Of a stretch of 64,000 bases of DNA, positions 7,992-62,567 are shown piece after piece. The notes under the pieces are model-generated. The model saw only the letters and a list, made by a program, of their open reading frames with translations, was not told the DNA's origin and made no database searches. The DNA is from a virus, in IMG/VR virus record IMGVR_UViG_3300029555_000004; one strand, 5' to 3'. The number at the start of each line of letters is the position of its first letter. The stretch's first letter is position 1. A program made the position numbers and the translations under genes.

Positions 7992-8063
7992 TGGGCTATC
8001 GCCAAGTGGTAAGGCCGTGGAATTTGACTCCACAATTCGTTGGTTCAAATCCAACTAGCCCAG
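7992..8063 (+). tRNA. tRNA-Gln (anticodon TTG)
   Basis: Hand-folded cloverleaf: acceptor TGGGCTA/TAGCCCA, D arm GCC..GGC, anticodon arm GTGGA-ATTTGAC-TCCAC, T arm GTTGG-TTCAAAT-CCAAC. Confidence 0.85.
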
Positions 8064-8276
8064 TTTGCAGTATTTAATATGCTGTAAAGGATTTTAAGCT
8101 TTCATAAGAAACACCTATAGCCTTCTAGCCTAGATGGGGCTGATTAAAGGGACTTCAAATATCCCGGAAGGCGTATCTGAAGTATCAGGAGTATTTCAGA
8201 AAACCTTTGTTATAGTTGGTGGTTAAGAACTGTAACAGTGCCAGTTTGGTTACCAGTATTGCCAACTGGTATCTCA

Positions 8277-8349
8277 GGAAGCTTAGTTCAGCGGTAAGAG
8301 CAACGGCCTCATAAGCCGTAAGTCCTGGGTTCGAATCCCAGAGCTTCCA
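8277..8349 (+). tRNA. tRNA with CAT anticodon (elongator Met or Ile2)
   Basis: Acceptor GGAAGCT/AGCTTCC, D arm GTTC..GAGC, anticodon arm ACGGC-CTCATAA-GCCGT, T arm CTGGG-TTCGAAT-CCCAG. Confidence 0.85.
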
Positions 8350-8698
8350 TTTCTTCTAAATGCCATTCATCCGTAATATGGGTGGAAAAAACTTCCAGTT
8401 GAGCGTGTGGATCAGGTAAATTATAGGTGCGATACGGCGCAGCCTAAATGGATCTGGTTTCCAAGCTGGAATGCATCTTGGAGTTAAAGAAATCAGCGCA
8501 GCGCACGCTGATTAAAGGAGTTTTCAAAAGATGCGAACCATAAGCCATTAAAGTTGTGCATAAAAATACTCGTGGAGCATACCACGGTTATCAAAAAGCC
8601 GCCAGGGTTGCCAGTAAGCGTACCGCAAATAAAGAAAACTGGATAGTGGAAAGCATAACACGATAAACCTATTGCTAACCCGGTTTTTCCGGGTTATT

Positions 8699-8770
8699 CG
8701 GAAAGTGCAAGTAACTGGGAACGGCCTGGTCGTAGACTAGGTCTTAATGGTTCGAATCCATTCTTTCCGT
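8699..8770 (+). tRNA. tRNA-like element, possibly a degenerate tRNA-Tyr (GTA)
   Basis: The acceptor stem CGGAAAG/CTTTCCG and T arm AATGG-TTCGAAT-CCATT are good. The anticodon arm CCTGG-TCGTAGA-CTAGG has C at position 33, and I cannot fold a D stem. Confidence 0.35.
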
Positions 8771-9273
8771 TCCGTATAGTGGCGAAATATGTAGACGCTA
8801 TTGTGGTAGCATAGGTTTCAACCCACAACTTAGGTGACCTAAGTCGACAGCATGATAGGTGTAAATCCTATCCTATACGGACGTTTGGCGTGTTGAGTGA
8901 TAACACACCTGATTGAAAAGTGGCGGAACTATTGACGGTGATGAATCCGATACAATAGAAAGGCAGACGCAGAGGATAGTACATCATAATGGGTGAGTAT
9001 GTGTCTTAGGACATGGGATGTACATAGAAGTTCAAATCTTCTCTTTTCAATTCTATCTACCAAGTGTAGATTGGAAATCTGACTTTAGCATAGCTATTGT
9101 TAGTTCTCGCACATAAATGAGGATTTGTTTGTGTGCGTTCGTGCAGGCATATAGACGCAACTCACTAGCGATCTTGTGCAAAAACTTTTTAGAGAGATAA
9201 GACCAATGCCCGTGAGGAGTGATAGTCGGGGATTCTAAAAAAATCATCTTGTTTAGCGTTTGAGGATGAAAAA

Positions 9274-9345
9274 AGAAACATAGCTCAGTGGTAGAGCAAT
9301 GATATCCAATATCATGTGACACAGGTTCGATTCCTGTTGTTTCTA
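9274..9345 (+). tRNA. tRNA-Trp (anticodon CCA)
   Basis: Acceptor AGAAACA/TGTTTCT, D arm GCTC..GAGC, anticodon arm ATGAT-ATCCAAT-ATCAT, T arm ACAGG-TTCGATT-CCTGT. Confidence 0.85.
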
Positions 9346-35693: not shown

Positions 35694-35825
35694 TTCGGTA
35701 AAATCAGTGGGCTAGGTTGGCCGCCGAAAAGCGTAATTCCATGATACGTCTGTCCACTGTTTTTATAAATCATGGGTCTGCGACAAGAAAGTAGTCACGC
35801 ATTAACGACATGGAGGTTATCTAAT

Positions 35826-51359: not shown

Positions 51360-51362
51360 CAA

Positions 51363-51396
51363 AAAGTCGACAGGAGTGCTGTCCTATCGACTTTTG
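51363..51396 (+). terminator. intrinsic terminator
   Basis: AAAGTCGA..(inner AGGA/TCCT)..TCGACTTT, then a short T-run. Confidence 0.5.
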
Positions 51397-51757
51397 CCTA
51401 AATTTGTTTACCCTATGTGTTTTGCAGACCGATTGCGTACTTGCTTTCAGCCACATTCTCAGCACCAAATGTTTCCTTGAAACACTTCGCCACTTACGCA
51501 GTTTTGGTTCTGCGATTGAGTTAAAAAGTTTAGCTGCCCATTAGTTGACGAATGTAGGAATTTTGTTCAATACGGTGAACGAAATTGCTTAACGTACTTT
51601 GGTAACGCAGTTTACTCTGCTTGCGACCTACAATAAGGAACAGGGCAAATTCAAAAGTTTGGTCAAAATACACAGCTCCTTTCATTGCCCATTATCAGGG
51701 AATGAAATAATTTTAACACATAGGAAAAATATTTTCAACATAAAGTGAGGTGAAATT

Positions 51758-54439: not shown

Positions 54440-54628
54440 ATGGGAGAAACTAAAAGCACAGATTATATTCCCGAGAACGCCAATGAAGAATATGCACTTC
54501 TGGTTGGAAGGTTAAAGGCATTTGAAGCTTGGGCGAATAGCGTGAACGATTATGATTTCACAAAGGATATGGCATTTAGAATGCTTGGGCTTGGTTTAGA
54601 GGAATCAAAGGAGGAAAAGAAAGAATGA
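54440..54628 (+). CDS. hypothetical protein
   Basis: ORF track. GAAGGAGGA RBS. Confidence 0.5.
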   Translation: MGETKSTDYIPENANEEYALLVGRLKAFEAWANSVNDYDFTKDMAFRMLGLGLEESKEEKKE

Positions 54629-55542
54629 AATGCTTTAAAGGCTTTGACAAGGACTTAAAGTGTAGAGATTTCCAGTATGAAATTGGAAAAGAATACACAG
54701 AAGAAAAAGCAAACATTTGTAATTATGGATTCCATGCTTGTGAATTCCCGATGGACGTATTCGGTTATTATCCTCCTTCAGATTCCAGATATTGTGAAGT
54801 TGATCTTGAAGCGAATGATCAGAAATCACCTGATGATAGCAAGAGAGTTGGGAAGAAAATTTCCGTGAAAGCAGAAATTGGAATTGCTGGAATTATCAAA
54901 GCTGGCGTTGAATACATCAAAGAGCAAGTTAATTGGGAAGATGATAAGACAACCAATACCGGAGATCAGTCAGCGACAACCAATACCGGAGATCAGTCAG
55001 CGGCAACCAATACCGGAAATCGGTCAGCGGCAACCAATACCGGAAATTATTCAGCGGCAACCAATACCGGAGATCAGTCAGCGGCAACCAATACCGGATA
55101 TCGGTCAGCGGCAACCAATACCGGATATCAGTCAGCGGCAACCAATACCGGAGATCGGTCAGCGGCAACCAATACCGGATATCGGTCAGCGGCAACCAAT
55201 ACCGGAGATCAGTCAGCGGCAACCAATACCGGATATCAGTCAGCGGCAACCAATACCGGAGATCAGTCAGCGGCAACCAATACCGGAAATCGGTCAGCGG
55301 CAACCAATACCGGAAATCGGTCAGCGGCAATTGTAGAAGGAAAAGAAAGTATTGCATTAGCTACAGGAATTAATTCAAAAGCTAAAGGAAAAATTGGATG
55401 TTTTATTGTTTTAGCAGAGTGGAAAGAGATCAATTATGAATATCATATTGTAGATATTAAATCAGCAAAAGTAGATGGAGAAAACATTAAAGAAGATACT
55501 TTCTATATGTTGAAAGACGGAAAATTTGTAGAAGCAGATTAA
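54625..55542 (+). CDS. repeat protein: 14 nonapeptide (A/T)TNTG-x-x-SA units between unique N- and C-terminal domains
   Basis: ORF track. AAAGGAGGAAAAG RBS. The repeats read in this frame join cleanly to non-repetitive flanks. Confidence 0.65.
   Translation: MKCFKGFDKDLKCRDFQYEIGKEYTEEKANICNYGFHACEFPMDVFGYYPPSDSRYCEVDLEANDQKSPDDSKRVGKKISVKAEIGIAGIIKAGVEYIKEQVNWEDDKTTNTGDQSATTNTGDQSAATNTGNRSAATNTGNYSAATNTGDQSAATNTGYRSAATNTGYQSAATNTGDRSAATNTGYRSAATNTGDQSAATNTGYQSAATNTGDQSAATNTGNRSAATNTGNRSAAIVEGKESIALATGINSKAKGKIGCFIVLAEWKEINYEYHIVDIKSAKVDGENIKEDTFYMLKDGKFVEAD
54949..55326 (+). repeat. 14 tandem copies of a 27-bp unit
   Basis: (A/G)CAACCAATACCGGA-NAT-NNN-TCAGCG. Apart from the first base of unit 1 (ACA versus GCA), the units differ only at the first base of codon 5 (G/A/T) and at codon 6 (CAG/CGG/TAT). 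Confidence 0.9.
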
Positions 55543-57258: not shown

Positions 57259-59230
57259 GTCTGTAGATTTGTTTCCAAGAACAGAGATTTCTGGCAGAAA
57301 CAGAGAAGGGAAATCCACATTGCAGGACGCATATTTGGACGTTCTGACAGGTAAGATGGCGAATGGTACAGAACCTACTTCTATTCGCAGAAAAGAAAAT
57401 GGCGTGGAAGTGCAAAAGGTTGATGTTGTTAGAGAACTTACACTTGTGATTGATGGAAAAGAAAAAGTGATCCGCAAAGTCACAAAGCAGAAGTGGAGAA
57501 AACCAAGGGGACAGTCAGAAGAGGTGTTCGATGGAAATGAAACTTCTTATGAAATTGACGGATTCCCGGCTAAATCAAAGGATTATACCGAGTTCATCCA
57601 GTCAATAGCAGAGCCTTCAACGCTTCTGATGTGCAGCAATCCAAAACCATTTCTGGACACATTACAGAAGTCAACCGCAGAATCCAGAAAGGTACTGGAA
57701 AAGATGTCTGGTTTCGATATTGCTCAGTTTATGGAAGAGAATCCGCAGTACGCTCATGTGGAAGAAATCACAAAAGGGCATTCCGTAGAAGATACATTGA
57801 AGAAGCTCCGAAAAGAACTGAATGTACAAAAGAAAAAGGTGGATGCCAAAAACACGGAGATTGCATATGAAACCAATCGAAGCGTTGAAGCAGAAGACAC
57901 TTCTTCCTTGGAACCCAAAAAGCAGGAGCTTAATGCGGAGATTTCCAGGCTGGAAGAACAGGAACAGATTCTTGAAGATTCAGCAAAAGGCTATGACAGC
58001 CTTTCATATGAAATCCGTGGTTTGAAATCTTCCAGGGATGGTCTGGTTAGCAAAGCGAATGAATGGTTAAGAGCCAGACAAAAATTTATTTCTGATACAG
58101 TTTCCGAACTTATGTTAAAAAAATCAGAAAAGGAATCAAGCATTCGTATTATTGGAATGGAACTGGATAACCACATAAGGGAAGCAAAACAGGCAAAAGC
58201 TGACTTGGATAGAGCCAGACAGGACTATCCAAGAACCAAAGAAAAGGAGTGGAATGATTCTAGACTGAAAGCTATTGAAGCTGAAACATTCAATGATTCT
58301 GATACCATTTGCCCCGCCTGCGGACAGGAACTGCCGGAAGAACAGGTTGCCGAATTGAAAGCCTCCTTTGAAGAAAAGAAGAAGTTTAGAATTAAAACTG
58401 AATTAACCCAAAAGAAAAATTGGGAATCAGTAAAGCAGAACCAGTTAAAAGGAATTTGTGACCTTGGAAATTCTGCTTCTGCAAAATTAAAGAAAACTAA
58501 CGAGGAAATCAACAAATTACAGTCGGAAATCAGTGCGGCACAGGATGAAGTTACTGAACTCACTAAACAGATTGAGGAAGAACAGTCCAAATTTACGGAG
58601 CTTCCAGAATCTGTAGATATGACAAATGATGAAGAATATCTTGCGGTTACAGCGAGAATTGCAGAACTTGAAGAGAAACTGAAATCATTTGATGATGTTC
58701 CTGGAAAGAAACAGGAATTGAGAATTCAGATCAGCAATGTTATGAAACAGATTTCCAATGTGGATGCAGATATTAAGATTGCACAGGCAGCAGTCACAGA
58801 AAAAGAAAAGCGAGTAGCCGAACTGAATGAGGAACTGAAAAGCCTTGGACAGGTACAAGCCGATATTGAAAAGAACATTGATACCGTTCTTAACTTCTCA
58901 ATTCAGAAAAATAAGGCACTGGCAGAGAAAATCAATCCATTTTTCCATCATTTCCAGTTCAGTTTCCTTGATTACACGATTGAGGGAAATCCAGTGGAAA
59001 CTTGCAAGATGATCTGCAATGGAATTGACTACAATAGCGGATTAAATCATTCCGACAAAATTCTTTGCGAGGTTGATTTACTGAATGGATTACAGGAAAT
59101 GAATGGGCTGAATCTGCCGATTTGGATTGATGATAGCGAATCCGTGAATGTTGATCGACTTCCCACATTAGACAGACAGATGATTGTGCTTAGAGTGACG
59201 GATGGGGATTTGAAAGCGAAAGAACTTTAA
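57203..59230 (+). CDS. Rad50/SbcC-like SMC-family ATPase
   Basis: N-terminal Walker A GRNREGKST, a long coiled coil with a central CPACG (zinc-hook-like CxxC), and a C-terminal Walker B-like LPIWIDDSESV. Confidence 0.65.
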   Translation: MKVEVKKISLENYKKFPSKSVDLFPRTEISGRNREGKSTLQDAYLDVLTGKMANGTEPTSIRRKENGVEVQKVDVVRELTLVIDGKEKVIRKVTKQKWRKPRGQSEEVFDGNETSYEIDGFPAKSKDYTEFIQSIAEPSTLLMCSNPKPFLDTLQKSTAESRKVLEKMSGFDIAQFMEENPQYAHVEEITKGHSVEDTLKKLRKELNVQKKKVDAKNTEIAYETNRSVEAEDTSSLEPKKQELNAEISRLEEQEQILEDSAKGYDSLSYEIRGLKSSRDGLVSKANEWLRARQKFISDTVSELMLKKSEKESSIRIIGMELDNHIREAKQAKADLDRARQDYPRTKEKEWNDSRLKAIEAETFNDSDTICPACGQELPEEQVAELKASFEEKKKFRIKTELTQKKNWESVKQNQLKGICDLGNSASAKLKKTNEEINKLQSEISAAQDEVTELTKQIEEEQSKFTELPESVDMTNDEEYLAVTARIAELEEKLKSFDDVPGKKQELRIQISNVMKQISNVDADIKIAQAAVTEKEKRVAELNEELKSLGQVQADIEKNIDTVLNFSIQKNKALAEKINPFFHHFQFSFLDYTIEGNPVETCKMICNGIDYNSGLNHSDKILCEVDLLNGLQEMNGLNLPIWIDDSESVNVDRLPTLDRQMIVLRVTDGDLKAKEL

Positions 59231-59424
59231 AAAAGAAAGGAACAGCCAGTAACTTGTTTGGCGATAGACTGGCTGCTCCATATGAAATATAGAACAAACT
59301 ATATTTATTATTAAAATAACAGAAATAATTGGCTTAATTAAGTCACAGGTGATTTTGCACCTGGAATGTGAGGAAAATATTTCACTCACAAGAACCTATG
59401 TGAAACCGAATATTGGAAATTGAG

Positions 59425-59583
59425 GTTTGAGATATCTGCAGACCTACATAGGTACAAAAGATGGACAATTTACCATTGAATAGTTTGAGAACCCTATAAA
59501 TTTGCATAGGTACAAAATTATGCCACCGAGAATAACGCTTGTGTTCAGCTTTATATGCCTAAAAGTTCAAATAAGTACAAATC
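59425..59583 (+). CRISPR. degenerate CRISPR-like array (three pseudo-repeats, 22- and 29-nt pseudo-spacers) upstream of the nuclease gene
   Basis: U1 59425-59460 GTTTGAGATATCTGCAGACCTACATAGGTACAAAAG. U2 59483-59518 GTTTGAGAACCCTATAAATTTGCATAGGTACAAAAT. U3 59548-59583. By hand alignment, about 20-24 of 36 positions match the downstream repeat. Confidence 0.5.
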
Positions 59584-59629
59584 AAAATTGCACAATTATA
59601 AAAAAACGCAAAAACGGGGTAAAAAATAA

Positions 59630-61198
59630 ATGGACAATACTATAACAATAACAAGAAAATACGCTCTGATTCCAGAATTTAGTGACCGTAAAGAATGGAA
59701 GAAAAGAGTTTACGATTTTACGATAAATGACTTAGAACAAAAAATTGATTATAGAAATAAGAAGAAACAAGATACTTCTAAATTAGAAAGTCAGCTTGAA
59801 TACATCAAAAATGGCGGTGATTTCACAAGAAGCATGGTGAACAACTATACATATAGTCTCGTGAGTACAGCTATGGAAGAAGAAGCTCGCAGAAAAAATT
59901 ATATTCTGTCTTGGATATTTTCTGAAATGAGAGCTAATAGAGTAGATCAAATGGAATCACTGAAAGACAAGTTCAAATTTGTTTCAGACACAATTAACTA
60001 CGCATATCGTAAAGCTGGAAGTAATAAAGGAAGCTTGTTTGACGAAACGGAAATTCGTTGCATATTGAAATCTTATGGAATTGCTTTTTCACAGGAACTT
60101 ACGAAAGAAATTAAAGAACTTGTGAAGAATGGAGTTCTAGAGGGAAAAGTAGTTATACCTACATACAAATTAGACTCACCATTTACGATTGCAAAATCAC
60201 ATTTTAGTTTTGAGCACGACTATGATTCATTTGAGGAATTATGCGAACATATTAGTGATTCCGATTGCAAAATGTATATGAATTATGGTGGAGATAATAA
60301 AAAAGATGGCATAAATCCTGCTTCTATTGCGCGATTTAGAATCAGCCTTGGACATGGAAAGAATAAGGATGAATTAAGAGCCACATTGTTAAAGGTGTAT
60401 TCGGGCGAATACCAGTATTGTGGAAGTAGTATTCAGATTACAAAAAACAAAATAATTCTTAATCTTACCATGAAAATTCCTAAGATTGAAACTAAGCTTG
60501 ACAAAAACACAGTAGTTGGAGTTGATCTGGGTATTGCTGTCCCTGCAATGTGCGCTTTAAATAACAACATGTATGAGAGATTAGCAATTGGAAGCGCAGA
60601 TGAATTTTTGAGAGTAAGAACTAAGTATCAAGCTCAAAGAAGAAGACTGCAAAAATCGTTGAAAAATTCAAGCGCTGGACATGGAAGAAAGAAGAAATTA
60701 AAAGCATTAGACAGGATGGATAAAGCAGAATCACATTTTGTTGAAACATATTGCCACATTGTAAGTAAACGAGTTGTTGAATTTGCTGTTAAAAACAGAG
60801 CAAAGTACATCAATATCGAGAATCTTAATGGATATGATACAAGCCAATTTATCCTTAGAAATTGGAGCTACTACAAATTACAGCAATATATCACATATAA
60901 AGCAGAACGATACGGAATTGCAGTTAGAAAAATCAATCCTTGCTACACATCACAGGTTTGTAGCGTGTGTGGAAATTGGGAAGATGGGCAAAGAAAGACG
61001 CAGGCATCATTTAAGTGTGCAAACCAAAAATGTGAAAGCCACAAAAAATATAAGTACGGTTTCAATGCAGACTTCAATGCAGCCAGAAATATTGCAATGT
61101 CAACTCTGTTTATGGAAGACGGAGAAGTCACCGAAAAGAAGAAAGAAGAAGCCCGTGAATATTACGGGATTAAAAAAGAAAATAGTAAGGCGGTCTGA
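59630..61198 (+). CDS. cas12f: miniature type V CRISPR effector, Cas12f/Cas14-like (TnpB-derived RuvC nuclease), 522 aa
   Basis: VVGVDLGIAVP (RuvC-I), AGHGRKKKLKAL, YINIENLNG (RuvC-II), CYTSQVCSVCGN...FKCANQKC (zinc finger), FNADFNAARNIA (RuvC-III). An N-terminal half of about 290 aa. CRISPR repeats on both sides. Confidence 0.75.
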   Translation: MDNTITITRKYALIPEFSDRKEWKKRVYDFTINDLEQKIDYRNKKKQDTSKLESQLEYIKNGGDFTRSMVNNYTYSLVSTAMEEEARRKNYILSWIFSEMRANRVDQMESLKDKFKFVSDTINYAYRKAGSNKGSLFDETEIRCILKSYGIAFSQELTKEIKELVKNGVLEGKVVIPTYKLDSPFTIAKSHFSFEHDYDSFEELCEHISDSDCKMYMNYGGDNKKDGINPASIARFRISLGHGKNKDELRATLLKVYSGEYQYCGSSIQITKNKIILNLTMKIPKIETKLDKNTVVGVDLGIAVPAMCALNNNMYERLAIGSADEFLRVRTKYQAQRRRLQKSLKNSSAGHGRKKKLKALDRMDKAESHFVETYCHIVSKRVVEFAVKNRAKYINIENLNGYDTSQFILRNWSYYKLQQYITYKAERYGIAVRKINPCYTSQVCSVCGNWEDGQRKTQASFKCANQKCESHKKYKYGFNADFNAARNIAMSTLFMEDGEVTEKKKEEAREYYGIKKENSKAV

Positions 61199-61395
61199 TG
61201 ATTGCCTTGATCATACAGAAATGTATGCGGCTGATTTCGCAGCCGAAAGGTGAGGATTATTGATATTTTTGAAATCCCAATTAGTTTAAAAACTGTTTTA
61301 ATTACAGCCGTTCACTATTGCGAGTAGTGGAAAATGTAACGTTTTAAAAATAATCACTCACCAAAACCTGTGCTACCTGTGAAATGGAATTTGAG
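61199..61395 (+). ncRNA. candidate tracrRNA-like scaffold / array leader
   Basis: No ORF. Hairpin CGGCTG..CAGCCG (61228-61245). GGTGAG (61249-61254) can pair with CTCACC (61357-61362). ACCTGTG occurs twice (61366-61372, 61375-61381) and is complementary to CACAGGT in the repeat. The last ~45 nt are homologous to 59375-59424. Confidence 0.35.
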
Positions 61396-61563
61396 GTTTA
61401 AGAGGTATATCAAATAACACAGGTACGAAACGACGCAAGCAAAATTGATGCCGCAATTGAGGTTTAAGAGGTATATCAAATAACACAGGTACGAAACATC
61501 TCTGTTAATTGGTTGCTTATTTCGTCCGTTTGAGAGGTATATCAAATAACATAAGTACGAAAC
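61396..61563 (+). CRISPR. mini CRISPR array: three 36-nt repeats, two 30-nt spacers
   Basis: GTTTAAGAGGTATATCAAATAACACAGGTACGAAAC at 61396 and 61462. The copy at 61528 has 3 substitutions. Spacers: gacgcaagcaaaattgatgccgcaattgag and atctctgttaattggttgcttatttcgtcc. Period 66 nt. Confidence 0.8.
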
Positions 61564-61619
61564 TGATGCAATCACGCAACAGCGTGTTAGCAAATATAAA
61601 AAAGAAAAGGAGAATTAAA

Positions 61620-62567
61620 ATGGCAGGAAAAACACAGTTAGCAACAGCAGGAGAACAACAGGCGGCAATTGTAATCAACAATTCATTCATTGATGGGCTG
61701 GTTAAGCAGCTTGAAAAAAAATGCGAATACGGTCTTTCGTTCCCAAAAGACTACAACCTCAGCAATGCGCTCATGGGGGCATATCTGATTCTGAAAGAAA
61801 CAAAAGACAGAAATAATAAGCCAGTTCTGGAATCTTGCACATCCACAAGCATTGCAAACAGCCTTATGAACATGGCGACACTAGGACTTTCAGTTCAGAA
61901 AAAACAGGGTTATTTCATTGCTTATTCCGGTCAGTGCCAGTTCCAGAGGTCTTACTTCGGAAACATTACAATAGCCAGAAGATACGGAATGAAAGATATT
62001 CACGCCGAGATCATCTACCAAGGAGATAAGTTCAAATACCACATTGAAGATGGAAACAAGGTGCTTGATTCCCATGAACAGGATTTTATGAATATTGATA
62101 ATGATAAAATCCTTGGCGCATATGCAGTAGTTCAGATGGAAGATGGAACAAAGCATTTGGAAGTAATGAACATGAAACAGATCAAGCAATCTTGGCTGCA
62201 GGGCTATGGGTACAAAGAAAACGGAAATGGAACACACCAGAAGTTTACCGATCAAATGGCAAAGAAAACAGTTATCAATCGTGCATTAAAGCAGATCATT
62301 AACAGCCACGGTGATGTTTTTGTACAGGAAGCTGACGAAAACACAGAGGATATTCCAAAACAGGATATTATTGAACAAGACGTTGCTTATGAAATTAGTG
62401 AGAATTCAAACACAGAAGAATTCATTCCACAGACAGAAGCAATCGAAGAAAAGCCAAAGCAGCCAACCGTAGCCGAAACCGTAAAAACAGCAGAGAAAGA
62501 ACCAGTCCCGGAAGCAGAGCCAGTGGAAACAGAAATTCCGTCATTTATGAGCCAGGAGGAAATGTAG
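61620..62567 (+). CDS. recT: RecT-family single-strand annealing protein
   Basis: ORF track 61509..62567. Start moved to ATG 61620 behind AAAGGAGA. SIANSLMNMATLGLSVQKKQGYFIAY...FQRSYFGNITIARRYG..IHAEIIYQGDKF is a RecT pattern. Confidence 0.75.
   Translation: MAGKTQLATAGEQQAAIVINNSFIDGLVKQLEKKCEYGLSFPKDYNLSNALMGAYLILKETKDRNNKPVLESCTSTSIANSLMNMATLGLSVQKKQGYFIAYSGQCQFQRSYFGNITIARRYGMKDIHAEIIYQGDKFKYHIEDGNKVLDSHEQDFMNIDNDKILGAYAVVQMEDGTKHLEVMNMKQIKQSWLQGYGYKENGNGTHQKFTDQMAKKTVINRALKQIINSHGDVFVQEADENTEDIPKQDIIEQDVAYEISENSNTEEFIPQTEAIEEKPKQPTVAETVKTAEKEPVPEAEPVETEIPSFMSQEEM

What the first reader, a model, noticed from the sequence alone, without database searches (positions are those of the whole stretch)
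61199..61395. Duplicated anti-repeat/scaffold elements upstream of both arrays show compensatory covariation with their own repeats
Each array is preceded by homologous sequence that ends in the same junction:
- Upstream copy: ...AAAATATTTCACTCACAAGAACCTATGTGAAA...TGGAAATTGAG|GTTT (59375-59424).
- Downstream copy: ...AAAATAATCACTCACCAAAACCTGTGCTACCTGTGAAATGGAATTTGAG|GTTT (61347-61395).

Two compensatory changes support real RNA pairing:
- The downstream leader carries ACCTGTG (61366-61372 and 61375-61381), the exact complement of CACAGGT in the downstream repeats. The upstream leader carries ACCTATG (59394-59400), the exact complement of CATAGGT in pseudo-repeats U1 and U2. This is a C:G to T:A compensatory change.
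- A second helix covaries as well. It is TGTGAG/CTCACA in the upstream copy (59367-59372 / 59385-59390) and GGTGAG/CTCACC in the downstream copy (61249-61254 / 61357-61362).

The pairing partner lies on the same strand, immediately 5' of the first repeat. That arrangement looks like a naturally fused tracr-crRNA (single-guide-like) transcript. It would be an intermediate between a TnpB omega-RNA and a canonical tracrRNA plus array.
Basis: partly seen in the sequence, partly recalled or inferred. Interest (0 to 1): 0.7.

Follow-up and report, generated by a model that had tools for sequence, protein, structure and literature searches.

The report
Phage Cas12f tracrRNA fused to mini-arrays
A gut phage carries a miniature CRISPR nuclease (Cas12f) flanked by two compact cassettes, each joining a tracrRNA-like scaffold directly to its own short CRISPR array, and the scaffold-repeat pairing is proven by compensatory mutations across about 100 related phage loci.

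Summary
Window 59630-61198 encodes a 522-aa Cas12f (type V-F1/V-U3). It is flanked on the same strand by two paralogous cassettes.

- Each cassette is: scaffold (stem 1, bulged stem 2, 8-nt anti-repeat), then a short linker ending in ATTTGAG, then 36-nt repeats with 30-nt spacers.
- The scaffold's 5' half is homologous to the experimentally validated RhCas12f tracrRNA.
- Across 49 distinct cassettes from 107 related loci, all three helices covary: 92% of cells paired against 76% in shuffles (0/500) and 30-43% in slid controls.
- Within multi-cassette genomes (up to 6 cassettes), each anti-repeat fits its own repeat best.
- Three protospacers for this clade lie in other gut phages, two of them in one tape-measure gene. 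All carry a 5'-TTTN PAM.

The "natural single guide" reading is plausible but unproven. In its favour: no predicted terminator in the window, a linker of only 5-77 nt, and a cis hairpin in the minimum-energy fold. The "evolutionary intermediate" reading is unresolved, because the clade is sister to canonical V-F1.

One new lead: the conserved junction ATTTGAG|GTTT, the 36-nt repeats and the 30-nt spacers match the type II-A leader-repeat signature. This suggests the phage borrows host machinery for spacer integration.

Verdict: a new variant of a known kind.

The parts
59630..61198 (+). cas12f gene (522 aa), type V-F1 / V-U3 effector
   Evidence: Pfam finds Cas12f1-like_TNB (1.9e-17) and OrfB_IS605. 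PDB best hits are 8hr5 (CnCas12f1, 2e-70), then 9nzo/9nzr (Al3Cas12f) and 9nzp (RhCas12f). PADLOC gives Cas12u3 at 2.8e-100 and Cas12f at 7e-97. The RuvC motifs VGVDLG, INIENL and NADFNAARNIA align to those of CnCas12f1.
59346..59363 (+). Upstream scaffold, stem-loop 1 (CAGGTG-ATTTTG-CACCTG)
   Evidence: Predicted in the minimum-energy fold. Helix 1 is 98.8% paired, with 5 of 6 pairs changed on both sides.
59367..59390 (+). Upstream scaffold, stem 2, short form (TGTGAGG...loop...CACTCACA, with a bulged A)
   Evidence: Helix 2 is 96.8% paired.
59394..59401 (+). Upstream anti-repeat ACCTATGT
   Evidence: Complementary to ACATAGGT at positions 22-29 of repeat U1, 59446-59453.
59418..59424 (+). 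Leader end AATTGAG (variant of ATTTGAG) abutting the first repeat
   Evidence: Junction logo A-T-T-T-G-A-G|G-T-T-T over 97 distinct cassettes. Same as the type II-A group 1 leader end (PMC5382924).
59425..59583 (+). Upstream mini-array: U1 59425-59460, 22-nt spacer 59461-59482, U2 59483-59518, 30-nt spacer 59519-59548, degenerate terminal repeat 59549-59583
   Evidence: for U1 and U2; the degenerate terminal repeat 59549-59583 is my own reading of the sequence and was not detected by nhmmer. Close relatives carry one extra, different leader-proximal spacer. One of those spacers matches another phage next to a 5'-TTTA.
61228..61245 (+). Downstream scaffold, stem-loop 1 (CGGCTG-ATTTCG-CAGCCG)
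   Evidence: Nearly identical to the 5' hairpin of the validated RhCas12f guide RNA, ACGGCUGAUUUAGCAGCCG.
61249..61362 (+). Downstream scaffold, stem 2, long form (GGTGAGG ... ~100-nt branched insert ... CACTCACC)
   Evidence: The arms are homologous to the short form. The insert folds as an extension of stem 2.
61366..61381 (+). Downstream anti-repeat: ACCTGTG at the position homologous to other cassettes (61366-61372), plus a second copy TACCTGTG (61374-61381)
   Evidence: Complementary to CACAGGT(A) in the repeats. In the fold, the first copy pairs with the repeat core and UACCU of the second copy pairs with AGGUA in the repeat's 5' half.
61389..61395 (+). Leader end ATTTGAG
61396..61563 (+). 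Downstream array: repeats 61396-61431, 61462-61497 and 61528-61563 (terminal, degenerate); spacers 61432-61461 and 61498-61527
   Evidence: Spacer 61432-61461 matches 30/30 a tail tape-measure gene in two other viral contigs, with a 5'-TTTG flank.

Best explanation
The segment 61199-61395 encodes the tracrRNA-type scaffold of a phage-borne type V-F1 (Cas12f) CRISPR system, and it doubles as the leader of the downstream mini-array. A shorter paralogous scaffold-leader (59346-59424) heads a second mini-array upstream of cas12f.

Each scaffold has a 6-bp hairpin, a bulged second stem (short or long form) and an 8-nt anti-repeat. The anti-repeat pairs with positions 22-29 of its own 36-nt repeat. 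That leaves the last 7 nt of the repeat plus the 30-nt spacer as a 3' guide, as in Cas12f single-guide RNAs.

The Cas12f-guide complex attacks protospacers flanked by 5'-TTTN in competing gut phages.

Shown:
- homology of the effector and of the scaffold to known Cas12f components
- the three helices, by covariation
- each anti-repeat fitting its own array best
- phage targets and the PAM
- spacer turnover at the leader-proximal end

Inferred:
- Scaffold and array are made as one precursor, so the first guide can form in cis as a natural single guide and later repeats pair in trans.
- The ATTTGAG|GTTT junction lets a host type II-A-like Cas1-Cas2 integrase add spacers.
For: - **Effector.** It is a Cas12f.
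- **Scaffold homology.** The 5' hairpin and the GAGG...CACUC stem match the validated RhCas12f guide RNA (PMC13186708 supplement; alignment).
- **Orientation.** All 202 scaffold hits and 417 repeat hits in the 107 loci searched (scaffold hits in 96 of them) are co-oriented with cas12f.
- **Covariation.** 92% of cells are paired against 76% in shuffles, with 0 of 500 shuffles as high. Slid controls give 30-43%. 19 of 26 pairs have changes on both sides.
- **Own versus cross pairing.** Within 29 multi-cassette genomes, own pairing averages 7.67 of 8 pairs and cross pairing 6.41. Duplex energy is -11.4 against -7.6 kcal/mol.
- **Folds.** Cis folds reproduce all helices, with z = -5.4 for the upstream unit.
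- **Terminators.** No + strand terminator-like site lies between scaffold and array.
- **Linker.** It is 5-77 nt long.
- **Targets.** The three protospacers found in other contigs for spacers of this clade carry 5'-TTTG, TTTA or TTTC. Mismatches are only PAM-distal. The spacers come from both the upstream and the downstream arrays.
- **Target gene.** It is a tape-measure gene.
- **Spacer turnover.** Both arrays show polarised turnover among phages whose Cas12f is 92-100% identical.
- **Type II-A resemblance.** The junction logo ATTTGAG|GTTT, the 36-nt repeats and the 30-nt spacers (180 of 228) match the type II-A group 1 leader-repeat description.
Against: - There are no RNA data, so neither co-transcription nor the mature RNA ends are known.
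- The promoter scan is uninformative: 9 sites found against 9.4 expected.
- The anti-repeat duplex is short, 8-12 bp. The proposed 4-bp extension is only 64% paired.
- One cassette family (L099 upstream) has a 2-nt internal mismatch.
- Arrays with more than one spacer cannot be served by cis pairing alone.
- Protospacers for more distant clades have non-T-rich 5' flanks: TATA, TTCT and GCTC.
- For the type II-A idea: no cas1, cas2, csn2 or cas9 appears among the flanking ORFs read. Only the two immediate neighbours were scanned against Pfam.
- The host is unknown.
- No common 3' PAM is seen. The selected flank is instead the Cas12f-type 5'-TTTN.
Confidence: 0.8

Rival explanations
1. These are conventional trans-acting tracrRNAs. 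Each scaffold is a separate small RNA that ends before the repeat. The arrays are transcribed on their own, and all pairing is intermolecular. The adjacency merely reflects phage genome compaction.
For: Canonical relatives have a tracrRNA right after cas12f and an array 130-250 nt further on (L018-L026). Arrays with 2-4 repeats need trans pairing in any case. Validated Cas12f systems use tracrRNA plus crRNA.
Against: The linker is as short as 5-8 nt in 23 of 97 distinct cassettes, and its last 7 nt are taken up by the conserved junction. That leaves no room for a terminator plus a promoter. No terminator-like site is predicted in the window. Anti-repeats match their own array better than other arrays in the same genome. 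A shared trans pool would not by itself require that.
Confidence: 0.3
2. The upstream cassette is a regulatory or decoy unit rather than an immune array. Its truncated 22-nt spacer begins with ATGGACAAT, which is identical to the first 9 nt of the cas12f coding sequence. It would guide Cas12f to its own start region for autorepression, like tracr-L or CreR-type mini-arrays.
For: The 9-nt match runs from spacer position 1 to the exact start codon (59461-59469 against 59630-59638). The spacer is unusually short. Regulatory mini-arrays with partial complementarity are widespread.
Against: The 5' flank of the target is AATAA, not the TTTN seen at all three protospacers. L006 has a mismatch at spacer position 4, and L001-L005 lack the spacer altogether. 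The only other 9-nt match of this kind (L010/L011) is evidently left over from an array rearrangement. Relatives carry ordinary 30-nt spacers in this same array, one of which matches another phage next to TTTA.
Confidence: 0.1
3. The similarity between the two upstream regions is only a duplicated CRISPR leader, carrying DNA-level promoter and integration signals. It has no RNA scaffold role, and the complementarity to the repeat is a leftover of repeat-derived sequence.
For: The junction is a DNA-level adaptation motif in type II-A systems. In the window alone the 8-nt complement is only p of about 0.02-0.03.
Against: Three helices show compensatory changes across 49 cassettes, with 0 of 500 shuffles as high. 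The scaffold is homologous to a validated tracrRNA. Decayed cassettes that lost the array also lost the anti-repeat (L152, L156 and L160 at 3638).
Confidence: 0.03
4. The elements are the right ends and omega-RNAs of TnpB-type IS200/IS605 transposons. The 'repeats' are transposon ends and the 'spacers' are flanking DNA.
For: The downstream scaffold starts about 30 nt after the stop codon, as an omega-RNA does. NCBIfam hits the guided_TnpB subfamily. One relative (L017) has a scaffold followed by a single repeat only.
Against: The periodicity is a regular 36/30 nt. Spacers turn over at the leader end. Spacers match other phages next to TTTN. Up to 6 cassettes accompany a single gene. No tnpA appears among the neighbouring ORFs read; the two immediate neighbours scanned are an SbcC-like ATPase and RecT.
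Confidence: 0.02

Closest known systems
Type V-F1 (Cas12f1 / former V-U3) CRISPR-Cas with tracrRNA, e.g. RhCas12f, CnCas12f1, Al3Cas12f (PDB 9NZP, 8HR5, 9NZO; PMC13186708)
   Same: The effector family is the same. The guide lies 3' of the repeat. The PAM lies on the 5' side of the protospacer (TTTN here; the Cas12f-MG119/Al3Cas12f systems in PMC13186708 also use T-rich PAMs). The tracrRNA 5' hairpin is nearly identical to RhCas12f (CGGCUGAUUUxGCAGCCG), followed by a GAGG...CACUC stem with a bulged A. An anti-repeat then pairs with the 3' part of the repeat, leaving a 5-7 nt tail before the guide.
   Different: - The scaffold is much shorter: about 56 nt from stem 1 to the anti-repeat in the short form. 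Published full guide RNAs are 129-156 nt, which also includes the crRNA part.
- The internal GGGUUAAC... stem region is absent.
- The anti-repeat is only 8-12 nt.
- The scaffold abuts the array instead of lying 130-250 nt away.
- There are two to six scaffold-array cassettes per effector gene, each with its own anti-repeat/repeat variant.
- The repeat and leader architecture is type II-A-like.
- The system is carried by gut phages, with no adaptation genes seen nearby.
TnpB omega-RNA / TranC 'RNA splitting' model (Jin et al., Cell 2025, as summarised in PMC13565253 and bioRxiv 10.64898/2026.03.27.714800)
   Same: The scaffold is encoded just downstream of the nuclease gene and 5' of the guide on the same strand. 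The terminal stem next to the guide is the point where tracrRNA and crRNA would be split.
   Different: Here the terminal stem is closed by a long loop that contains a leader-repeat junction, and real multi-spacer arrays follow. There are no transposon ends and no TnpA. I could not read the primary TranC paper, so overlap with any of its clades is untested.
Single chimeric guide RNAs of dCas12f-sigmaE systems (PMC12259090)
   Same: These are Cas12f-family proteins using a natural one-piece scaffold-plus-guide RNA. The authors propose that the dual guide 'collapsed again' into a single RNA.
   Different: Those proteins are nuclease-dead transcription activators with 14-16-nt guides and mostly no arrays. 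Here the RuvC motifs are intact and the arrays are active and target phages.
Type II-A group 1 leader-repeat junction (Van Orden et al. 2017, PMC5382924)
   Same: ATTTGAG|GTTT junction, 36-nt repeats beginning GTTT and mostly ending AAAC, and 30-nt spacers.
   Different: No Cas9, Csn2, Cas1 or Cas2 is encoded beside the arrays. The effector is Cas12f. The flank under selection is a 5'-TTTN, not a 3' PAM.
Virus-borne mini-CRISPR arrays, and MGE CRISPR systems that borrow host adaptation (PMC6858448; PMC11656645)
   Same: These are short arrays on a virus with spacers against related or competing viruses. There is precedent for a mobile-element CRISPR system using host Cas1-Cas2 (type IV-A with a type I-E host).
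   Different: Those mini-arrays usually rely on the host effector. Here the phage brings its own effector and its own tracrRNA-like scaffolds.

Membership tests
Type V-F1 (Cas12f1/V-U3) CRISPR-Cas | Small (400-700 aa) TnpB-like effector with a RuvC domain and a Zn-ribbon (TNB) domain | tested here: met
   522 aa. Pfam PF07282 and PF01385. PDB Cas12f hits down to 2e-70. PADLOC Cas12u3 and Cas12f.
Type V-F1 (Cas12f1/V-U3) CRISPR-Cas | Intact RuvC catalytic motifs (D, E, D) | tested here: met
   VGVDLG, INIENL and NADFNAARNIA align to the corresponding CnCas12f1 motifs. D299, E397 and D481 are at least 90% conserved among the 16 aligned sequences.
Type V-F1 (Cas12f1/V-U3) CRISPR-Cas | Adjacent CRISPR array transcribed in the effector's direction, with the guide 3' of the repeat | tested here: met
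   Arrays lie on both sides, and all 417 repeats are on the + strand. Protospacer orientation with 5'-TTTN confirms guide polarity.
Type V-F1 (Cas12f1/V-U3) CRISPR-Cas | tracrRNA with an anti-repeat that pairs with the repeat | tested here: met
   Covariation of the anti-repeat:repeat helix, 96.7% paired with 6 of 8 pairs changed on both sides. Homology to the RhCas12f tracrRNA.
Type V-F1 (Cas12f1/V-U3) CRISPR-Cas | PAM on the 5' side of the protospacer | tested here: met
   TTTG, TTTA and TTTC at 3 of 3 protospacers for the window's clade. Other clades are unclear.
Type V-F1 (Cas12f1/V-U3) CRISPR-Cas | One guide RNA bound by an effector homodimer | not testable with these tools
   Needs biochemistry or a structure. 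The N-terminal ~230 aa align poorly to CnCas12f1.
Canonical Cas12f tracrRNA (Rh/Cn type) | 5' stem-loop 1 and a bulged stem 2 | tested here: met
Canonical Cas12f tracrRNA (Rh/Cn type) | Internal GGGUUAAC... stem(s) between stem 2 and the anti-repeat; total guide scaffold about 130-160 nt | tested here: not met
   Present in L018-L026 but absent from the phage cassettes, where the anti-repeat follows stem 2 after 3 nt.
Canonical Cas12f tracrRNA (Rh/Cn type) | A separate gene or transcript from the array | tested here: inconclusive
   Linker of 5-77 nt and no predicted terminator in the window, but no transcript data.
TnpB omega-RNA / IS200-IS605 element | Single scaffold plus guide at a transposon right end, with IS ends or TnpA and no spacer array | tested here: not met
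   Regular arrays with spacer turnover and phage-matching spacers. The two immediate neighbours are an SbcC-like ATPase and RecT, and no tnpA appears among the neighbouring ORFs read.
Type II-A CRISPR array (group 1) | Leader end ATTTGAG, 36-nt repeat GTTT...AAAC, 30-nt spacers | tested here: met
   compared with PMC5382924.
Type II-A CRISPR array (group 1) | Associated cas9-cas1-cas2-csn2 genes and a 3' PAM | tested here: not met
   None appear among the ORFs flanking the locus (only the immediate neighbours were scanned). The three 3' flanks share no motif. The rest of the window was not scanned for cas genes.
Autoregulatory mini-array (tracr-L / CreR type) | Partially matching spacer aimed at the cas promoter or start region with a valid PAM, conserved among relatives | tested here: not met
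   A 9-nt match exists, but the flank is AATAA, L006 carries a mismatch and L001-L005 lack the spacer.

The most novel reading that the evidence does not exclude
These gut-phage Cas12f loci are built from self-contained 'natural single-guide' cassettes. One promoter drives a minimal scaffold of about 56 nt. The terminal stem of that scaffold is closed by a loop holding a type II-A-mimicking leader-repeat junction.

Under this reading:
- The first guide is made in cis, like an unsplit omega-RNA.
- New spacers are installed by the host's type II-A integrase.
- Cassettes multiply and diverge, keeping private anti-repeat/repeat pairs.

This would be a living example of the state between a one-piece transposon guide and a split tracrRNA-plus-array system. 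It would also be a case of a type V system parasitising type II adaptation.
Probability: 0.3. Interest if true: 0.85.

Novelty: new variant of a known kind. Interest (0 to 1): 0.68.

Why it matters
Cas12f is the smallest widely used genome-editing nuclease, and its long guide RNA is a practical limitation. A natural clade that works with a much shorter scaffold (about 56 nt in the short form), already joined to the repeat, offers ready-made minimal single-guide designs. It also supplies a set of naturally diverged anti-repeat/repeat pairs that might be used side by side.

For evolution, the layout bears directly on how a one-piece TnpB guide became tracrRNA plus CRISPR array, or collapsed back. 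It provides about 100 natural variants on which to test that question.

For phage biology, it shows ordinary-sized gut phages carrying their own effector and several tiny, actively turning-over arrays aimed at rival phages. The leader-repeat junction copies that of type II-A systems. This makes cross-type borrowing of spacer integration a testable idea.

Tried and rejected
- **Rfam.** Nothing was found in 59200-61650 even at E <= 1.
- **GenBank phages.** BLAST of the whole locus found no match.
- **Promoter scan.** It was no better than shuffles, so transcription starts cannot be placed.
- **Autoregulation by the 22-nt spacer.** I considered this because of the 9-nt match to the cas12f start. 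I set it aside because the target has no TTTN flank, conservation is poor, and an analogous match in L010 is a rearrangement relic.
- **Second anti-repeat copy.** It is present in 19 of 57 linkers against 12 of 57 shuffled linkers, which is not convincing at the loose threshold used.
- **4-bp extension of the anti-repeat helix.** It is only 64% paired and is not part of the conserved structure.
- **NJ tree to polarise fused versus split layouts.** The two clades are sisters, so the result is undecided. There are no support values and the method is crude.
- **PAM for more distant clades.** Three protospacers have unlike flanks, so nothing can be concluded.
- **Spacers of the L001-L005 group.** The scan returned only the arrays themselves.
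- **Cas12 'hacker' (Cas12p).** This phage-encoded miniature Cas12 family has a GTN PAM, unlike the TTTN found here, and the window protein's best hits are all Cas12f/Cas12u3. No direct sequence comparison with Cas12p was made.
- **TranC primary paper.** It is not held in the library.
Full report
**1. What is there**

The window region 59.2-61.6 kb holds a 522-aa ORF (59630-61198, + strand) with Cas12f1-like TNB and OrfB_IS605 domains.
- Its closest solved relatives are CnCas12f1 (8hr5, 2e-70), Al3Cas12f (9nzo/9nzr) and RhCas12f (9nzp).
- PADLOC calls it Cas12u3/Cas12f.
- The RuvC motifs are intact.
- It sits between an SbcC-like ATPase gene and recT in what is clearly a phage.
- The same contig and its relatives come mostly from human-gut metagenomes and IMG/VR.

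Downstream of the gene lie three 36-nt repeats (61396-61431, 61462-61497, 61528-61563) with two 30-nt spacers. Upstream lies a shorter array:
- U1, 59425-59460
- a 22-nt spacer
- U2, 59483-59518
- a 30-nt spacer
- a decayed terminal repeat, 59549-59583 (the decayed terminal repeat is my own reading of the sequence, not an nhmmer hit)

**2. Checking the observation**

The two pre-array regions are homologous and share three elements.

| Element | Upstream | Downstream |
|---|---|---|
| 5' hairpin | CAGGTG/CACCTG | CGGCTG/CAGCCG |
| Second stem | TGTGAGG...CACTCACA | GGTGAGG...CACTCACC, interrupted by a ~100-nt insert |
| Anti-repeat | ACCTATGT | ACCTGTG (present twice) |

- Each anti-repeat is complementary to positions 22-29 of its own repeats.

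In the window alone an 8-nt complement is only moderately unlikely, about 2-3% of shuffles per cassette.

**3. Evidence from relatives**

Protein-guided searches returned 13 viral, 68 genomic and 80 metagenomic loci.
- A sequence-only HMM of the scaffold found 202 copies in 96 of 107 relevant loci, all on the effector's strand.
- A repeat HMM found 417 repeats, all on the same strand.
- The usual layout is one cassette upstream and one downstream of cas12f. L010 has three, L012 five and L009 six in tandem.

I joined the HMM match columns of each scaffold to those of its first repeat. No structural information was used in this step. I then counted pairs on 49 distinct cassettes.

| Helix | Cells paired | Pairs changed on both sides |
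|---|---|---|
| Stem 1 | 98.8% | 5 of 6 |
| Stem 2 | 96.8% | 5 of 8 |
| Anti-repeat:repeat | 96.7% | 6 of 8 |

- Overall, 92% of cells were paired against 76% in shuffles, and 0 of 500 shuffles reached the observed value.
- With partners slid by 1-3 columns, pairing fell to 30-43%.
- Pair types at the variable anti-repeat positions include A-U, U-A, C-G, G-C and wobble pairs.

Within 29 multi-cassette genomes, an anti-repeat pairs better with its own repeat than with the repeats of sister cassettes. Own pairing averages 7.67 of 8 pairs against 6.41 for cross pairing, and duplex energy is -11.4 against -7.6 kcal/mol. The cases are not fully independent.

**4. What the scaffold is**

The published RhCas12f guide RNA begins ACGGCUGAUUUAGCAGCCGAAGUCUGAGGGCA...UGCCACUCGGAAA (PMC13186708 supplement).
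- This is the same hairpin, spacer and bulged stem as in the window: UGCGGCUGAUUUCGCAGCCGAAAGGUGAGGA...CACUCACCAAA.
- In RhCas12f a further stem region follows. A 7-nt anti-repeat (CAUUCCA) then pairs with UGGAAUG of the repeat, leaving UAAAU before the guide.
- Here the anti-repeat follows stem 2 after three bases, and the repeat leaves a 7-nt tail (ACGAAAC) before the spacer.

Bacterial relatives (Clostridium, Bacillus, Priestia and Paenibacillus; L018-L026) show the canonical layout. It has a long tracrRNA just after the gene, the GGGTTAAC... stem, and then 130-250 nt before the array. The window's elements are therefore a shortened tracrRNA type whose 3' end runs into the array leader. Rfam has no model for it.

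**5. Function**

I looked for targets of spacers from the window's own clade (Cas12f at least 92% identical). Three have matches in other viral contigs.

| Spacer | Source array | Target | Mismatches | 5' flank |
|---|---|---|---|---|
| 61432-61461 | Window, downstream | L163 and L164, tape-measure gene | 0 (30/30) | TTTG |
| AAGCCGTCC... | L007/L008, upstream | L174 | 1 (position 27) | TTTA |
| ACCTTCAG... | L007, downstream | L163, same tape-measure ORF | 2 (positions 24, 27) | TTTC |

- A 5'-TTTN motif at three of three sites, with only PAM-distal mismatches, fixes the guide polarity.
- It also shows that both arrays serve the same T-rich-PAM effector, and it points to competition between phages.
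- The window itself has no copy of the targeted sequence.
- Protospacers for more distant clades lie in gut phages too, but their flanks differ.

**6. One transcript or two?**

In favour of a single precursor:
- No + strand terminator-like site lies between scaffold and array.
- The distance from anti-repeat to repeat is 5-77 nt, and its last 7 nt are conserved.
- Minimum-energy folds of scaffold plus repeat plus spacer give stem 1, stem 2 and an anti-repeat:repeat hairpin, with a free 3' tail. This is the geometry of an engineered Cas12f single guide.

Against, or undecided:
- There are no RNA data.
- The promoter scan is uninformative.
- Later repeats in an array must pair in trans.

I put the fused-precursor model at roughly 55% and a purely trans model at about 30%.

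**7. Intermediate or derived?**

A crude NJ tree rooted on TnpB-like proteins places the phage clade (with L013, L015-L017 and L153) as sister to the canonical V-F1 clade. The direction of change therefore cannot be read from it.

The literature already offers both directions:
- splitting of the omega-RNA into tracrRNA plus crRNA (TranC model)
- a later collapse to single chimeric guides in dCas12f

L017, a Lachnospiraceae MAG, has a scaffold followed by a single repeat and no array. That is the closest thing to a one-piece guide in this data set.

**8. The shared junction**

Over 97 distinct cassettes the seven bases before the repeat read A-T-T-T-G-A-G, each 74-99% conserved. Positions further upstream are not conserved. 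The repeat begins G-T/C-T-T. Repeats are 36 nt, and 180 of 228 spacers are 30 nt.

This is the description of type II-A group 1 arrays: ATTTGAG/GTTT, 36-nt repeats and an AAAC end. In those systems the last 10 nt of leader plus one repeat suffice for spacer integration (PMC5382924).

Among phages whose Cas12f is 92-100% identical, both arrays differ at the leader-proximal spacer and share the distal ones. Spacers are therefore being added at that junction.
- No adaptation genes appear among the ORFs flanking the locus; only the two immediate neighbours were scanned against Pfam.
- Use of host integrases by mobile-element CRISPR systems has precedent.

I therefore propose, as inference only, that the junction recruits a host type II-A-like Cas1-Cas2. 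The fact that the selected flank is the Cas12f PAM rather than a 3' PAM is unexplained by this idea. It may reflect selection after integration.

**9. Verdict**

- The thing itself is a Cas12f tracrRNA-array system of an unusual, compact, multi-cassette design carried by gut phages. It is a new variant of a known kind. I found no description of it in the searchable literature.

Noticed in passing
window 59461-59482 and 59630-59638: The truncated 22-nt spacer of the upstream array starts with ATGGACAAT, identical to the first 9 nt of the cas12f coding sequence. The target flank is AATAA (not TTTN). L006 has a mismatch and L001-L005 lack the spacer. It is probably left over from an array/gene-start rearrangement rather than a regulator.
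   Followed up: partly
window 61457-61461: Spacer 1 ends in TTGAG, the same as the leader end, so repeats 1 and 2 appear to be 41 nt long. The TTGAG is part of the genuine protospacer in the target phages (L163, L164). It is therefore either coincidence or a bias in spacer choice or integration.
   Followed up: partly
window 61573-61586: A small hairpin (CACGC-AACA-GCGTG) lies just after the terminal repeat and before recT. The surrounding trailer is also present after the terminal repeat in L010, with the loop differing by one base. It could be a terminator, a processing site or part of the recT leader.
   Followed up: no
window 61374-61381; also L151, L144, L089, L153 linkers: Many cassettes carry a second, tandem anti-repeat-like copy in the linker. 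Enrichment over shuffled linkers was not convincing (19 against 12 of 57).
   Followed up: partly
L017 2528-2650: In a Lachnospiraceae MAG, the gene for a Cas12f-like protein (47% identical) is followed by one scaffold and a single partial repeat, with no array. This is an omega-RNA-like one-piece arrangement.
   Followed up: no
L152, L156, L160 at about 3638: These are decayed downstream cassettes. Stem 1 and stem 2 remain, but the anti-repeat and the whole array are deleted together.
   Followed up: no
L009 4678-5700; L012 4660-5700: Five and four tandem scaffold-array cassettes follow a single cas12f gene, in addition to one upstream. Some repeat variants are shared between cassettes and others are private.
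   Followed up: partly
window 51361-51552 (-), 35705-35775 (+), 7992-9345 (+): Rfam hits at gathering score elsewhere in the window: FuFi-1 RNA (125.7 bits), int-alpA RNA (47.7 bits) and three tRNA genes.
   Followed up: no
window 54950-55330: A 27-nt unit is repeated 14 times (94% matches) inside the ORF 54625-55542, encoding a TNTGxxSAA nonapeptide repeat protein.
   Followed up: no
P0093: One database homolog is a 672-aa protein that joins AAA/SMC-type ATPase domains to the Cas12f TNB domain. It is probably a gene-call or assembly fusion of the SbcC-like neighbour with cas12f.
   Followed up: no
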